DNA of 64,000 bases from an uncultured Acidobacteriota bacterium (GTDB lineage: Bacteria; Acidobacteriota; Vicinamibacteria; Vicinamibacterales; UBA8438): positions 1-64,000 of the forward strand of contig CAJWLU010000006.1 of assembly GCA_913043225.1 (NCBI GenBank). Direction: 5' to 3'. The translations under genes were made by a program, and so were the position numbers. Positions 57,220 through 63,674 of this stretch are shown here, one piece after another (the first letter of the stretch is position 1; each line of letters opens with the position of its first letter). The notes under the pieces were generated by a model. That model was given only the letters and a program-made list of their open reading frames with translations, ran no database searches and was not told the DNA's origin.

Positions 57220-58230
57220 ATGGGTCCCAAATTCTTCTCTCGAAGAGTCGCCCCACTGGTGCTGGCCGCGACATTTGGAGTGACGGTCTCCGCCTGGGTC
57301 CAACCGTCGGCCCAGGGGACGCTTCTGGTGTTACTGCGCGATTCGAGCCAGTTAGCCATCGTCGACCCGACAACGGGTGAGACTCTGGCGAAGGTTCCGA
57401 CTGGTCGCGACCCGCATGAGGTGACGGCGTCCGACGATGGACGACTGGCGTTTGTGGCCAGCATGGTCGACGGGATCTCGGTGATCGATCTGGAGACCCG
57501 TGAGGAGGTCCGCCGAGTTGACCCTGGTCCCGGGAGCGAGACCCACGATCTGTTGTATCTCGACGGTAAGGTCTATTTCACCATCGAGGGCTACAAGTCG
57601 ATCGGGCGTTACGACCCGACGGAGGACACGATCGATTGGACCATCGGGATCGGCGAAGAGGGGGTGCACATGCTGGTGCACGACCCCAGAACAGGTAACC
57701 TGTTCACGCCAAACACTGGGTCGAATACGGTGACTATGATCGAGAATGCGACATCTGGACCGGCCGAGGCCAGAACCATCCATATCGATATTCCCGGGGA
57801 GACGCCGGAGGCGCTTGATCTGTCTCCGGATGGGAGCGAACTGTGGACCGCCACACGGGCGGACGGCGGCGTCTCGGTAATCGATGTGGCTCGCCGCGAG
57901 GTGGTTGCCGATATGGACTTGGGGATGATTGACGCCAATCGGCTGCGCTTCACGCCAGACGGTCGGGTGCTGATCATTGACGGCGAGGCGGCCCAACTGC
58001 TGGTGATGGACTCGCGCTCGCGCGAGGTTGTCGAACGGGTCAGTCTGGGAGAGGTCGATACGGGTGACGGCGCCCTCCTGGTGGGACCCGACGGGCGCTA
58101 TGCCTATGTCGGCCTTCGCGCGATCGATATGGTTGCGATTGTGAACCTTGAGACCTTGGAAGTCACGATGGAACTGAGCTTCAGCGCTGGCGATGGTCCC
58201 GGTTGTATGTATTGGGTCAGACCGAGCTAG
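57220..58230 (+). CDS. YncE/YVTN-type beta-propeller protein
   Basis: PTGRDPHEV, SPDGSELW, TPDGR, GPDGRYAYV repeats; signal peptide. Confidence 0.8.
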   Translation: MGPKFFSRRVAPLVLAATFGVTVSAWVQPSAQGTLLVLLRDSSQLAIVDPTTGETLAKVPTGRDPHEVTASDDGRLAFVASMVDGISVIDLETREEVRRVDPGPGSETHDLLYLDGKVYFTIEGYKSIGRYDPTEDTIDWTIGIGEEGVHMLVHDPRTGNLFTPNTGSNTVTMIENATSGPAEARTIHIDIPGETPEALDLSPDGSELWTATRADGGVSVIDVARREVVADMDLGMIDANRLRFTPDGRVLIIDGEAAQLLVMDSRSREVVERVSLGEVDTGDGALLVGPDGRYAYVGLRAIDMVAIVNLETLEVTMELSFSAGDGPGCMYWVRPS

Positions 58231-58242
58231 GTGGGGAGCGCG

Positions 58243-59802
58243 ATGGCAAGGTTGAGGCGGGTGGGCCTAGCCTTCGCCACGGTCATCGCCTCGCTTGGTG
58301 GCTGCACGTCCCCGGAACGGCCATTGGTGCCGGTGGAGCCTCTTGAAGTCACCGAAGCCTCTATCGCCGAATTGGGTGAGGCGATGGCGATGGGGCGGGT
58401 CACCTCTGAGGAACTGGTCGAGCGCTATCTTGCCCGAATCGGGGCTTACGACCAGCAAGGCCCGGCGCTGAATACCATCATCGCGTTGAATCCGGATGCG
58501 TCGGATGCGGCGCGTTCGTTGGATGAAGAACGGGCGGCGGGTAATGTCCGGGGCCCCCTACACGGCGTCCCCATCCTGATTAAAGACAACTACGACTTGG
58601 CAGGGATGCCCACGACGAACGGTTCAGTCGCATTGGCGGAACTGATGCCGCCAGATGACGGCTTCCAGGTGCGTCGGCTCAAGGAAGCCGGCGCAGTTAT
58701 CCTGGGCAAGACGAATCTGCACGAGTTCGCGCGCGGCATCACGACGGTTGGCTCGAGAGCAGGGCAGACGCGGAACCCGTACGATACGGAGCGGAATCCC
58801 GGGGGGTCGAGCGGCGGAACGGGCGCGGCTGTAGCCGCCAGCTTTGCTGCAGTGGGCATGGGTAGCGATACCTGTGGGTCGATCCGGATTCCGTCCGCAC
58901 ACAACAACTTGACTGGCCTGCGCGGCACGCAGGGTCTATCTAGCCGAGACGGCGTGTTCCCACTGTCTCATACTCAGGATATCGCTGGACCTATGGCGCG
59001 GTCGGTCACGGACCTGGCCCTAGTGCTCGACGCGACAGTGGGGTCCGATCCAGCCGATCCGGCAACGGCTGACGCTGACGCGAACATCCCAATTAGCTAC
59101 GTGACCGGGCTCGACGCCGGAGCCTTGGCGTCGGCGCGGGTGGGGGTGCTTCGGGGCTACGTTCGCCAGGGCCCGGAAGATGATGCGGTGGGGGCGGTGT
59201 TTGATGGAGCTATGGAGGACCTGGCTCGTCTTGGTGCGGAGGTTGAAGTGGTCGCGATCGACGGCCTGGCGCAGTTGCTCGACAGCTATGTTGTTTTGAG
59301 CAGCGAGTTCAAATTCAGTGTGGAGGGGTATCTGGCCGCCGTCGAGGACGCTCCAGTTTCGACACTGGACGCAATCATCGCGGATGGACGCTACGACGCC
59401 AGCATAGATGAGCGTCTGAACACCTCCAATGCCGTCACGACGCTTGACACGGCGGAGTATCTCGAGGCGTTTGCGCGTCGCGCGGAAACGGCCGCCCGGA
59501 TCATTGCGGTGATGGATGAACGCGATCTGGATGCGTTGCTGTACCCGACCATGCGACAGGTGGCAGCGGAGATCGGTCGCCCGCAAGGCGGCGATAACTG
59601 TCGGATTAGCGCGAATACGGGTCTGCCAGCGCTAACCGTGCAGGCCGGGTTTACCGACGAAGGGATGCCGGTCGGCCTGGAATGGCTGGGTCGTCCATGG
59701 TCGGAGTCCCGGTTGCTGGCCTTGGGCTATGCCTATGAGCAGGGTACTCGCCATAGGAGAGCGCCGGCGAGCACTCCTGTGCTGGGAGAGCGGGCGCAGT
59801 GA
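58243..59802 (+). CDS. amidase signature family lipoprotein
   Basis: LGGC lipobox; GPLHGVPILIKDN, PGGSSGG, GSDTCGSIRIPS. Confidence 0.9.
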   Translation: MARLRRVGLAFATVIASLGGCTSPERPLVPVEPLEVTEASIAELGEAMAMGRVTSEELVERYLARIGAYDQQGPALNTIIALNPDASDAARSLDEERAAGNVRGPLHGVPILIKDNYDLAGMPTTNGSVALAELMPPDDGFQVRRLKEAGAVILGKTNLHEFARGITTVGSRAGQTRNPYDTERNPGGSSGGTGAAVAASFAAVGMGSDTCGSIRIPSAHNNLTGLRGTQGLSSRDGVFPLSHTQDIAGPMARSVTDLALVLDATVGSDPADPATADADANIPISYVTGLDAGALASARVGVLRGYVRQGPEDDAVGAVFDGAMEDLARLGAEVEVVAIDGLAQLLDSYVVLSSEFKFSVEGYLAAVEDAPVSTLDAIIADGRYDASIDERLNTSNAVTTLDTAEYLEAFARRAETAARIIAVMDERDLDALLYPTMRQVAAEIGRPQGGDNCRISANTGLPALTVQAGFTDEGMPVGLEWLGRPWSESRLLALGYAYEQGTRHRRAPASTPVLGERAQ

Positions 59803-60710
59803 CGTCCCGGGTCTCAAAAGAGCGTGGCTGGAGCCGGGATGTTGCTGTCTGGAGTGGCATTGCCCTGCTGGTGGCCTGTGTTGTCGCCGTGGCACTCCCG
59901 GCCTCGACTGAGGCGCAGTCGAGGCCAGGAGACCTCGAAAGCCTCCTGACCCGTGCAGGAGCCCAACTCGAAGAGCACTATCAACGTGCCCAGCGGATCG
60001 TCTCGACCGAGAAGGTGTGGGTGCGGTCCTTCCACCGCAACATGCGGTCGAACGGGTCGCCCCGGCACATGGAGTTCGAGCATCGTGTGGAGTGGGACGC
60101 CGCGGGTGCCGGGCTACCGCCTACCGTGACGGTCTTCCGGGACCTTCTGCAGGTGGATGGGCGTTCGCCTACGGCGGATGATCGGGACGCTTGCCTGATG
60201 CCGGTGGAGGTCGACCAAGATCCCCTGGCGATGCTTCTTCCATATCGACAAAAGGAGTTTTCGTTTCGATTGGTCGGTGATGAACGGGTCGACGACCGCC
60301 AGACGACCCGGGTCGCCTACGAACCGCTCGAACAGGGGGACCCGAAGATTACTTGGGAGGACGACTGTGTCTCGTTGGAACTCCCCGGACACTCGGCGGG
60401 CGAGCTCTGGATCGACCCCGAGACAGGCGACGTGGTCCGGTTGGACGAGCATCTGATGGGCCGTTTTGAGTTCAGAGAGCCGCCCGAGCGGGCCAGGGAC
60501 ATTCCCGCTCGTCTGACGCTCGAAAGGTCCGAACTCAGCATCCGATACAACCGGGTACGCTTTGAGGACCCACCAGAGACGCTCATGCTGCCGGAGGCGG
60601 TCGAGAGCAGTTGGACGTTGGTCGGGCCGAGCTTCGTGCCACGTTATGTGCGGCGGCAAGAGTTTTCGGACCATCGCCGGTTCGTGGGTGACGGTCGTAT
60701 TGTGCGATAG
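59799..60710 (+). CDS. hypothetical exported protein
   Basis: GTGA overlap with the amidase; hydrophobic N-terminus; GELWIDPETGDVVRL beta-rich body. Confidence 0.7.
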   Translation: MTSRVSKERGWSRDVAVWSGIALLVACVVAVALPASTEAQSRPGDLESLLTRAGAQLEEHYQRAQRIVSTEKVWVRSFHRNMRSNGSPRHMEFEHRVEWDAAGAGLPPTVTVFRDLLQVDGRSPTADDRDACLMPVEVDQDPLAMLLPYRQKEFSFRLVGDERVDDRQTTRVAYEPLEQGDPKITWEDDCVSLELPGHSAGELWIDPETGDVVRLDEHLMGRFEFREPPERARDIPARLTLERSELSIRYNRVRFEDPPETLMLPEAVESSWTLVGPSFVPRYVRRQEFSDHRRFVGDGRIVR

Positions 60711-60769
60711 GCGTTCGAGACTGATACCATCTGACGGTTGAAAGTCGTGTGGTCACAGGGAGATACGCG

Positions 60770-61957
60770 ATGAAACGAGTGTTCATAGCCCTCGCCGCGG
60801 GGGTGTTGTTCTTCGTGGCAGGCGATGCACGGGCGCAGACCCAGCAGCCTGTCGAACCGGCGCACGGTGTGCTCGATCCGGACGCCACCACTGACGATCT
60901 CGGGATCGACATCCCGATTCCGGTGTCATACCCCGCTCGGCGCTATCCCGCGTCGCACGATTTCCCAAGTGGACCCGGTATCGGCGAACGCCTACCTGAA
61001 TTCTCGCTACCGAACCAACATGGGGAGTTGGTGGATTTCCACGCCGACCGTGGCGAATCAAAGTCGGTCGTGGTGTTCTACCGCTCGGCCGTATGGTGAC
61101 CGTACTGCCGTACGCAGCTGGTCGAGCTGCAGGACAACTTGGAATTGTTTCAAGCGGAAGGCATCAAGGTCTACGGCATCAGCTACGACACCTCCGAGCA
61201 GCTGCTCGCATTCGCGAGTGACTACGACGTGACCTACGACCTGTTGGCTGATGTCGACTCCGAGGTCATCAAGACATTCGGGATTCTAAATACCCTAATT
61301 GAACCGGATGACCCTGAGCAGAGTAGTGCGGGACGAGGCTTCTACGGCATGCCCTTCCCGGGTGTGTATGTCACAGACGGCAACGGCGTGGTGACCGAGA
61401 AGTTTTTTCATCGTCACTATGGCACCCGTGAGTCCGCCGGCGCGATCCGCGACTCGGCGCTCGGCGAGATCCTTGTTCGGCACGAAGTGCCCGTAGTGGA
61501 GCTAGCTAACGAGCAGGTCAAGATTTCGGCGTTCACGTCAGATCCGTCATTACAATTCGAGACGCAGACCATGGTCTACGTTCGATTCGAGCTGGAGGAT
61601 GGATTGCACATGTACGGGCGTCCGCTTCCTGACGGCTACATTGCGTCGGAAGCGACCATCCCCGATATTTCGGGCCTCCGGGTGGGCGAGGCGCGGTATC
61701 CACCCACGCATGAGCAAGAGTTTCCGCTCCTGGGCGTCACGTTGAATGTCTATGAGGGCGTTGTCGATGTGGCCATTCCGGTAACGCCGAACGCGGAGCG
61801 GTTCACGTCTCGGTTGTCGCAGGAGGTGGATATTCCGATTGAGGTGCTGTTCCAGGCCTGTAGCGACACCATCTGCTACACGCCGCGGACGGAAACATTG
61901 TCGGTGACCCTGCCGATCGAGCCTTTGCTGCGTTCGGGAGAATCAAGGAACCGGTGA
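60770..61957 (+). CDS. putative exported selenoprotein: AhpC/TSA peroxiredoxin-like domain (UxxC, Sec110) fused to a DsbD-N-like domain
   Basis: Reading through TGA 61097-61099 gives FYRSAVW-U-PYCRTQLVELQ, in frame with ORF 61139-61957; SECIS-like hairpin follows; C-terminal FQACSDTICYTP; 395 aa. Confidence 0.85.
61114..61130 (+). promoter_or_regulatory. putative bacterial SECIS hairpin
   Basis: Stem GCAGCT (61114-61119) / AGCTGC (61125-61130), loop GGTCG; 20 nt lie between the UGA and the loop, which starts with G. Confidence 0.7.
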
Positions 61958-62541
61958 TGGTCGAGGACACGCTCGCACCGTATGTCATCGAGGAGGCCCG
62001 GTCGAGCCGTTCGCGATGTCGGACTTGCCGGAAGAAGATCGAGAAGGGAAAGCTGCGCCTCGGTATTTTGCTGGAGGGCCCTTATGGCACCGGGTATCTC
62101 TGGCACCACCTGACCTGCGCGGCGAGACGAAGACTCGAGGACGTGGAGGCGGCCTACGCCCAGCCTGCGTTCGAGAAGGGCCTGAAGGTCCCGGCGCTTG
62201 AGAAGCTGCAGGCGCTACAGGAGAAGGCTGAGAAGGAGCGCGCCGACCGAAAGGAGTTGCCCTACGTTGAGAAGGCGCCTACCGGACGGTCGAAGTGCAA
62301 GCGTTGCGGTGCAGGTATCGAGCAGGACAGTTTCCGCGTGGTGCTCGCCCGTGAGGTGGCCTTCGGTAGCCAGGTCCGGAGTGGCCCCATTAACGTGCAT
62401 CCGAAATGTGTGGCCGAGGAACTCGACACCGAAGACTGTATGACCGAGGTAGAGGGCTTCGGCGAGGCGCTCCACGCGCACAGCGGCCTTGACGCCGCCA
62501 CGGTCGACGCGGCTCTGGCCGAGATAGGTTCCCTGGGCTAG
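61957..62541 (+). CDS. protein with two tandem PARP-type zinc fingers
   Basis: IEEARSSRSRCRTC-x26-HLTC and VEKAPTGRSKCKRC-x30-HPKC; TGATG overlap with the upstream gene. Confidence 0.8.
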   Translation: MVEDTLAPYVIEEARSSRSRCRTCRKKIEKGKLRLGILLEGPYGTGYLWHHLTCAARRRLEDVEAAYAQPAFEKGLKVPALEKLQALQEKAEKERADRKELPYVEKAPTGRSKCKRCGAGIEQDSFRVVLAREVAFGSQVRSGPINVHPKCVAEELDTEDCMTEVEGFGEALHAHSGLDAATVDAALAEIGSLG

Positions 62542-62642
62542 ACGCTAGAATTTTAGGTGCCTTCGGCAAGGGATGGGTTTATCCGGCGGTAACCAAGAGT
62601 TGTCTCGATCGAGTGCCGACTAAGAAGCAAGGAGAGGATTCG

Positions 62643-63674
62643 ATGAGCAAGTGGCGCACGTCGACCAGTGTCGTGGTCTTTACGTTGGCAATCGTGGTCG
62701 CGGGTCCGGTTCTCGCGCAGGAGGCATGGACTCTGCCGCGCACGGCAGACGGCGATCCCGAGATCGGTGGGGTCTGGGACTTCCGTACGCTTACCCCGCT
62801 GCAGCGTCCTGGAGATGCGGCTGAGCAGCTGACTGATGAAGAGGCGGCGGCCATCGAGGAGCGTTCCCGCCAGGCGGCGATTGAGGCCGACCGGCCCAGC
62901 GAAATACGCACCGAACCACTGCCGGTCGGTGCGCCGGTGGGCGGCTATAACAACTTCTGGTTCGACCGTGGTGCGGGTGTCGTCGATGACAACCGTACGT
63001 CGCTTATCGTTTCCCCGGCCAGCGGGCGCGTGCCGGCTCTGCAGCCGGGCGTCGAAATGGTACGGCTCTCGCTAGGCGAGGACATTCCGGGCGGACAGCC
63101 GGTGCGCGTCCGTGCGGCCGGCATCGGGGCCTCTCACTGGAAAGACCGCGGCCTGGCTGAGCGGTGCTTGCTGGGCTTTAATTCAGGGCCTCCCATCGTG
63201 CCGGCCGGTTACAACCAGAACTTTCAGGTGTTTCAGACCAAGGACCACGTGGTCATTCTGCACGAGATGGTGCACGACTCGCGGATCGTGCCGCTCGACC
63301 GGAGGCCGCACCTGCCCGAGAGCATTCGGCAGTGGATGGGTGATTCCCGGGGCTACTGGGACGGCGATACGCTGGTGGTGGAGTCGAAGAATTTTACGGA
63401 CCAAACCTCGAGCTTCAGCCCGTCGGTGACCATGGCGGCCGGCGACGGTACCACGCTGAACCTGACTGAACGGTTTACGCGGGTGGCAGACGATACGCTG
63501 CTGTATGAGTTTACCGTCGACGACCCACAGACGTTTACTGAGCCGATCGTGGCCCAGATTCCTGTGAAACGCGGCGATATGATGTTCGAGTACGCGTGTC
63601 ACGAAGGCAATTATGGGCTGGATAACATCCTGCGCGGCGCCCGCGAAGCCGAGCTCGCGGCTGCCGGCCAGTAG
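62643..63674 (+). CDS. exported uncharacterised protein, ACHEGN family paralog 7
   Basis: RTADGDPEIGGVW, ERCLLGFNSGPP, EMVH, FEYACHEGN; TAGAAT at 62546-62551. Confidence 0.85.
   Translation: MSKWRTSTSVVVFTLAIVVAGPVLAQEAWTLPRTADGDPEIGGVWDFRTLTPLQRPGDAAEQLTDEEAAAIEERSRQAAIEADRPSEIRTEPLPVGAPVGGYNNFWFDRGAGVVDDNRTSLIVSPASGRVPALQPGVEMVRLSLGEDIPGGQPVRVRAAGIGASHWKDRGLAERCLLGFNSGPPIVPAGYNQNFQVFQTKDHVVILHEMVHDSRIVPLDRRPHLPESIRQWMGDSRGYWDGDTLVVESKNFTDQTSSFSPSVTMAAGDGTTLNLTERFTRVADDTLLYEFTVDDPQTFTEPIVAQIPVKRGDMMFEYACHEGNYGLDNILRGAREAELAAAGQ

What the first reader, a model, noticed from the sequence alone, without database searches (positions are those of the whole stretch)
61957..62541. Stand-alone bacterial protein with two PARP1-type zinc fingers, coupled to the selenoprotein gene
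Seen: two repeats, C-x2-C-x26-H-x2-C and C-x2-C-x30-H-x2-C, each preceded by E-x-A-x-(S/T)-x-R-S-x-C and followed by I-x4-(L/F)-R. A charged helical linker separates them, and there is no catalytic domain. The ATG overlaps the upstream stop (TGATG at 61955-61959). Established: zf-PARP fingers sense DNA breaks in eukaryotic PARP1 and DNA ligase III, and PARP1 has a tandem pair. Inference: a bacterial nick sensor. If translational coupling is real, its expression could depend on UGA readthrough, linking selenium supply to an oxidative/DNA-damage module.
Basis: partly seen in the sequence, partly recalled or inferred. Interest (0 to 1): 0.75.

Follow-up and report, generated by a model that had tools for sequence, protein, structure and literature searches.

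The report
Bacterial stand-alone tandem PARP-type zinc fingers
This gene encodes a small bacterial protein made of two PARP1-type zinc fingers and nothing else; it probably binds breaks in DNA, and its position next to a selenoprotein gene looks like a recent accident rather than a functional link.

Summary
ORF 61957-62541 encodes a 194-aa protein with two CCHC fingers, spaced x26 and x30. It matches Pfam zf-PARP at 74.7 bits against a cut-off of 39.3. An AlphaFold model (pLDDT 96) matches human PARP1 Zn1 and Zn2 at Z 9.1-9.4. The Zn ligands and the PARP1 R18-type arginine are kept in 189-198 of 199 stand-alone relatives.

The protein belongs to an uncharacterised family, patchily spread in marine Acidobacteriota, Planctomycetota and one Myxococcales MAG. 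There were 487 hits, and 29 of 401 sampled genomes of the phylum carry the domain.

The selenium-module idea fails. The upstream selenoprotein appears next to the gene in 2 of 74 related loci, both the same species or genus. The stop/start overlap occurs only in the species. Other lineages have different upstream genes. The selenoprotein looks exported. Overlapping genes are common in the window, 11 of 42 pairs.

Most likely this is a non-catalytic binder of DNA nicks, gaps or ends; this is inferred from homology and not tested. Its second finger is a divergent type not matched well by eukaryotic fingers. The genome shows no Ku, ATP-dependent ligase, PARP or WGR.

The parts
61957..62541 (+). 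CDS of the 194-aa stand-alone tandem zf-PARP protein (stop included). A GTG at 61954 is an alternative in-frame start.
   Evidence: 487 homologues at E<=1e-3
61972..62214 (+). Finger 1, a complete zf-PARP fold (residues 6-86). Zn ligands are C21, C24, H51, C54. R18 and R34 are near-invariant, and residue 43 in the loop is aromatic (Y or F).
   Evidence: Pfam stretch 12-88. Model 6-86 aligned to PARP1 Zn1 residues 6-91, Z 9.1, rmsd 2.2 A, 79 aligned. Conservation.
62197..62247 (+). Charged helix (residues 81-97) that joins the two fingers.
   Evidence: DSSP of the model, H81-97
62254..62538 (+). Finger 2, a complete but divergent zf-PARP fold (residues 100-194). Zn ligands are C114, C117, H148, C151. 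R111 and R127 are conserved.
   Evidence: Genome-level Pfam match at 62269-62448. Model 100-192 aligned to PARP1 Zn2 residues 111-200, Z 9.4, rmsd 3.4 A, 87 aligned. Separate HMM test.
62413..62538 (+). Acidic C-terminal helices (residues 153-194, net charge -11). They are the helical half of finger 2.
   Evidence: Charge count; helices H168-175 and H180-190
61945..61959 (+). Translation start region: AAGGA (61945-61949) lies 7 nt before the ATG, and the upstream stop TGA (61955-61957) overlaps the ATG (61957-61959).
   Evidence: Read. The junction is identical in L045 but replaced by TAG plus about 18 nt of spacer in L046.
60749..61957 (+). Upstream neighbour, not a functional part. It is an AhpC/TSA + DsbD_N protein with an in-frame TGA at 61097-61099 (W-U-P-Y-C) and a signal-peptide-like N-terminus.
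   Evidence: The TGA is conserved in L045 and L046. SelA and SelB are present in the genome.

Best explanation
The gene encodes a cytoplasmic, non-catalytic protein built of two complete PARP-type (CCHC) zinc-finger domains. By homology, each finger should hold one zinc. Each should bind DNA without sequence preference at discontinuities (nicks, gaps, ends). Binding would use a conserved arginine that grips the backbone (R18 and R111, equivalent to PARP1 R18 and R122) and a hydrophobic loop that stacks on exposed bases (Y/F43 in finger 1). Because it has no enzyme domain, the protein would mark, cap or shield breaks, or recruit an unidentified partner. The identity and the fold prediction are shown; DNA-break binding and any role in the cell are inferred. 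The gene belongs to a family that is widespread but patchy and has moved between phyla. Its position directly behind the selenoprotein gene is a genus-level accident of gene order, not a regulatory module.
For: Domain identity: PF00645 at 74.7 bits against a cut-off of 39.3, 2 stretches. The family profile hits PARP1 F1F2 2n8a at 1.5e-23 and DNA ligase III 1uw0 at 3.4e-13. Fold: AF2 pLDDT 96.0, pTM 0.78. In Foldseek all hits through rank 28 are PARP1 or ligase III fingers. VIA-align gives Z 9.1-9.4 for each finger, against Z 4.7 or less for the first unrelated chain. Functional residues, counted among 199 stand-alone relatives with both fingers aligned (of 207 aligned): C21 196, C24 196, H51 198, C54 197, C114 196, C117 193, H148 189, C151 191, R18 198, R34 198, R111 193, R127 194, Y/F43 188. 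R18 aligns with PARP1 R18, which together with R122 forms the 'phosphate backbone grip' (PMC8150716 passages). Charge: the finger regions are +4, +2 and +4, and the tail is -11. Against the module idea: the selenoprotein is upstream in 0 of 33 loci and 2 of 41 loci. The junction is not conserved in the congener. Other lineages carry different upstream genes: deoxyhypusine-synthase-like in 17 loci and a PHP-domain lipoprotein in 19 loci, out of 74. Spread: 29 of 401 genomes and 24 of 228 genera of the phylum carry the domain (one of the 29, G187, is unpublished). In the tree the window's clade groups with Planctomycetota at 98/97 support. Fragments of a close relative occur in RNA libraries, and one contig bridges the junction.
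Against: No binding data exist for any bacterial member. No DNA-repair gene is consistently adjacent, and fusions are to metabolic-looking enzymes: a uridine-kinase/PRK domain, an M20 peptidase and 5-FTHF cyclo-ligase. This gives no support for a repair role. The second finger is divergent: eukaryotic fingers score only 18-33 bits against its HMM, compared with 38-54 bits against the finger-1 HMM. Its ligand could therefore differ. The model predicts a fixed two-finger arrangement (pTM 0.78) that does not superpose on DNA-bound PARP1 F1F2 (rmsd 11-12 A). The genome shows no Ku, ATP-dependent ligase, PARP or WGR partner (96% complete). The RNA-library contigs do not prove transcription, because DNA can be present in such libraries.
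Confidence: 0.6

Rival explanations
1. It is a general nucleic-acid binder, such as a nucleoid-associated or regulatory protein or an RNA or tRNA-end binder, with no preference for DNA breaks. On this view the PARP-type fold serves only as a basic zinc-stabilised binding surface.
For: No repair genes are consistently adjacent. A CCA-adding / poly(A)-polymerase-family gene lies downstream in 8 of 74 loci. The second finger is divergent. The predicted rigid geometry is unlike DNA-bound PARP1.
Against: The arginine and the aromatic loop that contact DNA breaks in PARP1 are nearly invariant. The characterised zf-PARP fingers named in the PMC3094755 passages (PARP1, ligase III, ZDP) belong to DNA-break proteins.
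Confidence: 0.22
2. The first reader's module: the finger protein is translationally coupled to the selenoprotein, so its level follows selenium supply, and the two form an oxidative / DNA-damage unit.
For: The TGATG overlap is present in the window and in a 98%-identical contig. The gene order is kept in an 85%-identical congener. No sigma-70-like promoter was found in 60500-62800. One RNA-library contig bridges the junction.
Against: The linkage is found in 2 of 74 related loci, and only within the genus. The overlap is lost in the congener. The selenoprotein looks periplasmic (signal-like N-terminus, DsbD_N). An AAGGA lies 7 nt before the ATG. Overlaps are common here. The promoter scan covers only sigma-70 consensus, and its expected count was already 0.5.
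Confidence: 0.04
3. It is a sensor subunit of a larger system that is encoded elsewhere. The same two-finger module is fused to large uncharacterised C-terminal regions in other proteins, so the stand-alone form may work in trans with such an effector, for example against foreign DNA ends.
For: The same N+C finger pair occurs at the N-terminus of 865-1052 aa proteins with no other Pfam domain, and in 533-568 aa proteins with weak LRR-like matches.
Against: PADLOC gave 0 hits for the window protein and for 11 of the 13 fused forms tested. The other two gave only repeat-type matches, HEAT-ARM and PDC-M72A. No such effector lies next to the gene in any locus. The atlas search on one long form gave only scores of 0.77 or less.
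Confidence: 0.1

Closest known systems
Human PARP1 DNA-binding domain (zinc fingers Zn1/F1 + Zn2/F2)
   Same: It has a tandem pair of CCHC zf-PARP fingers. Finger 1 is numbered identically up to residue 45 (R18, C21, C24, R34). The best structural matches are finger 1 to Zn1 (Z 9.1) and finger 2 to Zn2 (Z 9.4).
   Different: There is no Zn3, BRCT, WGR or catalytic domain in the protein or in the genome. By sequence the second finger is not Zn2-like (PARP1 Zn2 scores 18 bits on the finger-2 HMM). The fingers are predicted as one rigid body (pTM 0.78), whereas PARP1 F1 and F2 are structurally independent without DNA (PMC3094755 passages).
[quoted passage not shown]
   Same: It is a small zf-PARP protein with no PARP activity and an acidic C-terminal region (PMC3435320 abstract and section 5). 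The bacterial protein also ends in an acidic stretch (-11).
   Different: Hpz1 is described with a single PARP-type Zn-finger domain; it is eukaryotic and nuclear, and it is linked to Rad3/ATR. The bacterial protein has two fingers, and its acidic part lies inside the second finger's fold.
DNA ligase III-alpha zinc finger and plant ZDP (3'-phosphatase with several zf-PARP fingers)
   Same: The finger type is the same. The profile hits 1uw0 at 3.4e-13, and a Brachypodium ZDP isoform and a PNK3P fusion appear among the phmmer hits.
   Different: Those fingers are tethered to an enzyme, a ligase or a phosphatase. Here no enzyme is attached, and no ATP-dependent ligase was found in the genome.
Bacterial PARP homologues (WGR + PARP domain)
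   Same: They are bacterial proteins related to the eukaryotic PARP system and are thought to have been acquired sporadically by horizontal transfer (PMC4245714 passages).
   Different: Those proteins carry WGR and catalytic domains and, as described, no zf-PARP fingers. This protein is the reverse: fingers only.

Membership tests
zf-PARP (PF00645) zinc-finger domain family | Score above Pfam's gathering threshold | tested here: met
   74.7 bits against 39.3, E 9.9e-21, 2 stretches. At genome level finger 1 scores 49 bits (over the cut-off) and finger 2 scores 28.5 bits (under it on its own).
zf-PARP (PF00645) zinc-finger domain family | [quoted passage not shown] | tested here: met
   C-x2-C-x26-H-x2-C and C-x2-C-x30-H-x2-C. 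The ligands are kept in 189-198 of 199 relatives.
zf-PARP (PF00645) zinc-finger domain family | Fold: a three-stranded antiparallel sheet followed by two helices | tested here: met
   This rests on a predicted model only. The elements are E9-13, E33-41, E44-51, H52-58, H60-68 and E103-106, E126-136, E139-147, H149-156 plus later helices. Z is 9.1 to Zn1 and 9.4 to Zn2.
zf-PARP (PF00645) zinc-finger domain family | DNA-contact residues: the backbone-grip arginine (PARP1 R18/R122) and a hydrophobic base-stacking loop (F44 in Zn1) | tested here: met
   R18 aligns with PARP1 R18. R18 is kept in 198 of 199 and R111 in 193 of 199. Y/F43 (188 of 199) sits one alignment position from F44, so the stacking residue is probable but not exact.
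zf-PARP (PF00645) zinc-finger domain family | Binds zinc, and binds DNA nicks, gaps or ends in preference to intact DNA | not testable with these tools
   Needs purified protein (metal analysis, EMSA).
PARP1-type enzymes (poly(ADP-ribose) polymerases) | PARP catalytic domain, with WGR | tested here: not met
   There is no PARP or WGR match in the protein or in the 96%-complete genome. The PF00644 control rang in none of the 14 control genomes, so absence from the genome is only weakly shown.
   0 of 33 genome loci and 2 of 41 metagenome loci, both within the genus. The overlap is lost in the congener.
Known anti-phage defence systems (PADLOC) | Match to a PADLOC model | tested here: inconclusive
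   0 families for the window protein at E<=0.01. The library dates from 2023.

The most novel reading that the evidence does not exclude
Bacteria have their own portable DNA-break sensor. It is a rigid two-finger PARP-type module whose second finger is a type not matched well by eukaryotic fingers. The module exists stand-alone (as here) and fused to large uncharacterised effectors, and it has spread between marine phyla. In organisms with no detected Ku, ATP-dependent ligase or PARP it would be a previously unrecognised way of recognising or capping nicks and ends. The acidic C-terminal helices could act as a built-in DNA mimic or a partner dock.
Probability: 0.3. Interest if true: 0.6.

Novelty: new variant of a known kind. 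Interest (0 to 1): 0.4.

Why it matters
PARP-type fingers are the best-studied DNA-break sensors of eukaryotes, and in the literature they appear as parts of PARP1, ligase III and plant ZDP. A large bacterial family consisting only of two such fingers would be a minimal, enzyme-free system for asking how this fold reads DNA damage. It could also show what break recognition does in bacteria in which no Ku, ATP-dependent ligase or PARP was found. In addition, it bears on where the eukaryotic fingers came from. The attractive link to selenium does not survive comparison with relatives, so that line of work need not be followed.

Tried and rejected
- Conserved-neighbour clustering of stop-to-stop ORFs was too noisy in these GC-rich loci. 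It was replaced by a crude GC3-based gene caller, Pfam and tblastn. Gene starts from that caller are the first start codon and may be over-extended.
- Rfam on 60600-62800 gave no match.
- The fold of the 64 nt after the Sec UGA has a 6-bp hairpin in the centroid structure, but the energy is not unusual (z -0.69).
- The promoter/terminator scan found 0 promoter-like sites (0.5 expected) and 2 terminator-like sites (1.5 expected), none directly after the gene. This is uninformative.
- NCBIfam gave no family for the finger protein. PADLOC gave none.
- The ESM Atlas search on the C-terminal 800 aa of one long fused form scored 0.77 or less, so it gave no lead.
- The homodimer prediction returned no verdict. 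It counts neither for nor against dimerisation.
- The RNA-library contigs cover only parts of the stretch. Uncovered parts mean nothing.
- I asked whether the tandem pair is simply PARP1 F1+F2 transferred into bacteria. Structure ranks finger 1 with Zn1 and finger 2 with Zn2, but within a Z difference of 1, while the sequence HMMs say finger 2 is not Zn2-like. The question is left open.
- Literature: searches for zf-PARP + bacteria, PARP-type zinc finger + bacterial, PARP-like zinc finger + prokaryot, PF00645, and IPR001510/zf-PARP/Znf_PARP variants found no study of a bacterial zf-PARP protein. The only mention was a remark that the motif occurs 'even in bacteria' (PMC3435320, section 5).

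Full report
**The observation**

The + strand ORF 61957-62541 translates to a 194-aa protein. It contains C21-x2-C24-x26-H51-x2-C54 and C114-x2-C117-x30-H148-x2-C151.

Pfam gives zf-PARP (PF00645) at E 9.9e-21 and 74.7 bits against a curated cut-off of 39.3, with two stretches. Nothing else passes a cut-off. NCBIfam has no family for the protein. The upstream stop TGA at 61955-61957 overlaps the ATG at 61957-61959.

**What the protein is**

A profile of 48 relatives (alignment A1) hits human PARP1 F1F2 (2n8a, E 1.5e-23; 4av1, 3.5e-23) and the DNA ligase III finger (1uw0, 3.4e-13).

AlphaFold2 on A1 gives mean pLDDT 96.0 and pTM 0.78. In Foldseek against the PDB, all hits through rank 28 are PARP1 or ligase III zf-PARP structures. 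In VIA-align:
- Model residues 6-86 align to PARP1 Zn1 residues 6-91 (Z 9.1, rmsd 2.2 A, 79 aligned).
- Model residues 100-192 align to Zn2 residues 111-200 (Z 9.4, rmsd 3.4 A, 87 aligned).
- The first unrelated chain scores Z 4.7.

The protein is therefore two complete zf-PARP domains joined by a charged helix (H81-97). The acidic C-terminal helices are the helical half of finger 2, not an extra domain.

[quoted passage not shown] This definition is met.

**Functional residues**

| Residues | Kept, of 199 |
|---|---|
| Eight Zn ligands | 189-198 |
| R18 | 198 |
| R34 | 198 |
| R111 | 193 |
| R127 | 194 |
| Y or F at position 43 | 188 |

R18 aligns with PARP1 R18. According to passages of PMC8150716, R18 in Zn1 and R122 in Zn2 form the 'phosphate backbone grip', and F44 lies in the 'base stacking loop'. 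The bacterial aromatic residue sits one alignment position from F44.

Net charge is +4, +2 and +4 over residues 1-56, 57-99 and 100-152, and -11 over residues 153-194. These features fit DNA-break binding, but none of this is a measurement.

**How it differs from PARP1**

I built separate HMMs of the bacterial finger 1 and finger 2 and scored other proteins against them.
- Every eukaryote-type finger tested scored better on the finger-1 HMM (38-54 bits) than on the finger-2 HMM (18-33 bits). The proteins tested were one protein with full PARP1 architecture, a Brachypodium ZDP, a PNK3P fusion, a WGR fusion and a multi-finger plant protein.
- PARP1 Zn2 itself scored 38.4 bits on the finger-1 HMM and 18.0 bits on the finger-2 HMM.
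- The finger-2 type scored 57-123 bits only in other proteins that carry the bacterial-type finger pair (one of them has a third finger).

The pair is therefore a distinct unit with a divergent second finger.

The model's fixed inter-finger geometry (pTM 0.78) does not superpose on DNA-bound F1F2 (rmsd 11-12 A over 160-170 residues). [quoted passage not shown] The rigid arrangement is a prediction only.

**Distribution**

- The word-indexed search found 487 proteins at E<=1e-3 among proteins of 106-340 aa. The named ones are MAGs of Vicinamibacterales/Acidobacteriota and Planctomycetota, nearly all labelled 'hypothetical protein'.
- phmmer against 1.84 billion cluster representatives found 583 hits at E<=1e-3 and 22 at E<=1e-30.
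- The window's own genome (3.85 Mb, 96% complete) has this one gene only.
- With the protein as query, 4 of 24 other genomes of the same family and 0 of 16 from other families of the order have it.
- With PF00645 as query, 29 of 401 sampled genomes and 24 of 228 genera of the phylum match. One of the 29, G187, is unpublished. None of 14 control model genomes matches.
- In a maximum-likelihood tree of 33 sequences, the window and six other Vicinamibacterales sit with 13 Planctomycetota. They are separated by a 98/97 branch from 12 other Acidobacteriota plus one Myxococcales. One locus, L042, was left out because its gene is cut by the contig end. This argues for transfer between phyla. The direction is unknown because the tree is unrooted.

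**The selenoprotein link**

The upstream ORF 60749-61957 is an AhpC/TSA domain (E 7.9e-29) plus a DsbD_N domain (4.8e-13), with an in-frame TGA at 61097-61099 in a W-U-P-Y-C motif. The TGA is conserved in two related contigs, and the genome has SelA and SelB. A selenoprotein is therefore plausible. It has a signal-peptide-like N-terminus (read) and a periplasmic-type domain.

I searched both halves of this protein by tblastn against all related loci.

| Collection | Loci with the selenoprotein | Loci with at least 1200 nt upstream |
|---|---|---|
| genome contigs | 0 of 33 | 29 |
| metagenome contigs | 2 of 41 | 23 |

Several loci are the same contig held in both collections. The two positives are L045 and L046. 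In L045 the finger protein is 98% identical and the junction is identical. In L046 it is 85% identical. There the selenoprotein ends in TAG, and the finger gene starts about 18 nt later with a longer N-terminus.

Other lineages have other upstream genes on the same strand:
- A deoxyhypusine-synthase-like gene in 17 of 74 loci (Planctomycetota). The called starts overlap its stop in L019, L030 and L031.
- A PHP-domain protein with a lipoprotein-type signal in 19 of 74 loci (the other acidobacterial clade).
- In the nearest Vicinamibacterales loci outside the window's genus (L013-L017), the upstream gene is on the opposite strand.

In the window itself, 11 of 42 same-strand gene pairs overlap and 23 of 42 lie within 30 nt of each other (crude caller). 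An AAGGA lies 7 nt before the ATG.

One 318-nt contig from an RNA library bridges the junction at about 95% identity. This is compatible with co-transcription but does not prove it. The module idea is therefore not supported.

**Partners**

No Ku, ATP-dependent ligase, PARP catalytic or WGR domain was found in the genome. The PARP search rang in no control genome, so that absence is only weakly shown.

Fused forms exist:
- A uridine-kinase/PRK domain in front of the finger pair, in 5 clusters of 427-493 aa.
- An M20 peptidase fusion.
- 5-FTHF cyclo-ligase and HEAT fusions.
- Proteins of 865-1052 aa with the pair at the N-terminus and no other Pfam domain.
- Proteins of 533-568 aa; two of the four scanned have weak LRR-like matches.

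None of these points clearly to repair or defence. PADLOC gave no hit for the window protein or for 11 of the 13 fused forms tested. The other two gave only HEAT-ARM and PDC-M72A repeat-type matches.

**Literature**

Five searches found no study of a bacterial zf-PARP protein.
- PMC4245714 (passages) describes bacterial PARPs as mostly WGR+PARP.
- PMC3435320 (abstract and section 5) characterises Hpz1 of S. pombe. Hpz1 is a stand-alone PARP-type finger with an acidic C-terminus and no PARP activity. The paper remarks that the motif occurs 'even in bacteria'.

Subscription journals are not covered by the library.

**Verdict**

This is a real, well-conserved, uncharacterised bacterial variant of a known DNA-break-sensing domain. 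The headline link to selenium is a local accident of gene order. Interest is moderate.

Noticed in passing
window 60749-61957 (+); UGA at 61097-61099: AhpC/TSA + DsbD_N protein with an in-frame TGA in a W-U-P-Y-C motif and a signal-peptide-like N-terminus. The TGA and the following 6-bp hairpin are conserved in L045 and L046. SelA and SelB are present in the genome. It is a probable exported selenoprotein that an ORF list splits in two.
   Followed up: partly
L018, L019, L021, L022, L029, L030, L031, L037, L038, L044, L056, L058, L067, L078, L082, L083, L085: In Planctomycetota a deoxyhypusine-synthase-like gene (PF01916) lies directly upstream of the finger gene on the same strand (17 of 74 loci). 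The called starts overlap its stop in three loci, and NadA lies a few kb further upstream in several. [quoted passage not shown]
   Followed up: partly
L023, L026, L027, L028, L033, L040, L043, L060, L062, L063, L065, L066, L068, L069, L072, L073, L075, L076, L081: In the other acidobacterial clade a PHP-domain protein of about 430 aa, with a lipoprotein-type signal, precedes the finger gene (19 of 74 loci). A CCA-adding / poly(A)-polymerase-family gene with an HD domain follows it in 8 loci.
   Followed up: partly
proteins P0284-P0287, P0289; P0153, P0175, P0198, P0212, P0220, P0243, P0258; P0160, P0172, P0177, P0191: The same two-finger module is fused behind a uridine-kinase/PRK domain (5 clusters). 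It also sits at the N-terminus of 865-1052 aa proteins whose remainder has no Pfam or PADLOC match, and of 533-568 aa proteins, two of which have weak LRR-like matches.
   Followed up: partly
window 62643-63674 (+): The downstream gene encodes a 343-aa protein with a signal-like N-terminus and no Pfam family. It is conserved (58% identity) in L014, L015, L048 and L050, but upstream of the finger gene there. In the congener (L012, L046) about 2.2 kb, including a Ser/Thr-kinase fragment, is inserted between the two genes.
   Followed up: no
window 57220-63674 (+): A run of seven same-strand genes is tightly packed, with abutting or 1-4 nt stop/start overlaps at 58230/58231, 59799-59802 and 61955-61959. 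Most of the products look exported or hydrolytic (beta-propeller, amidase, unknown).
   Followed up: no
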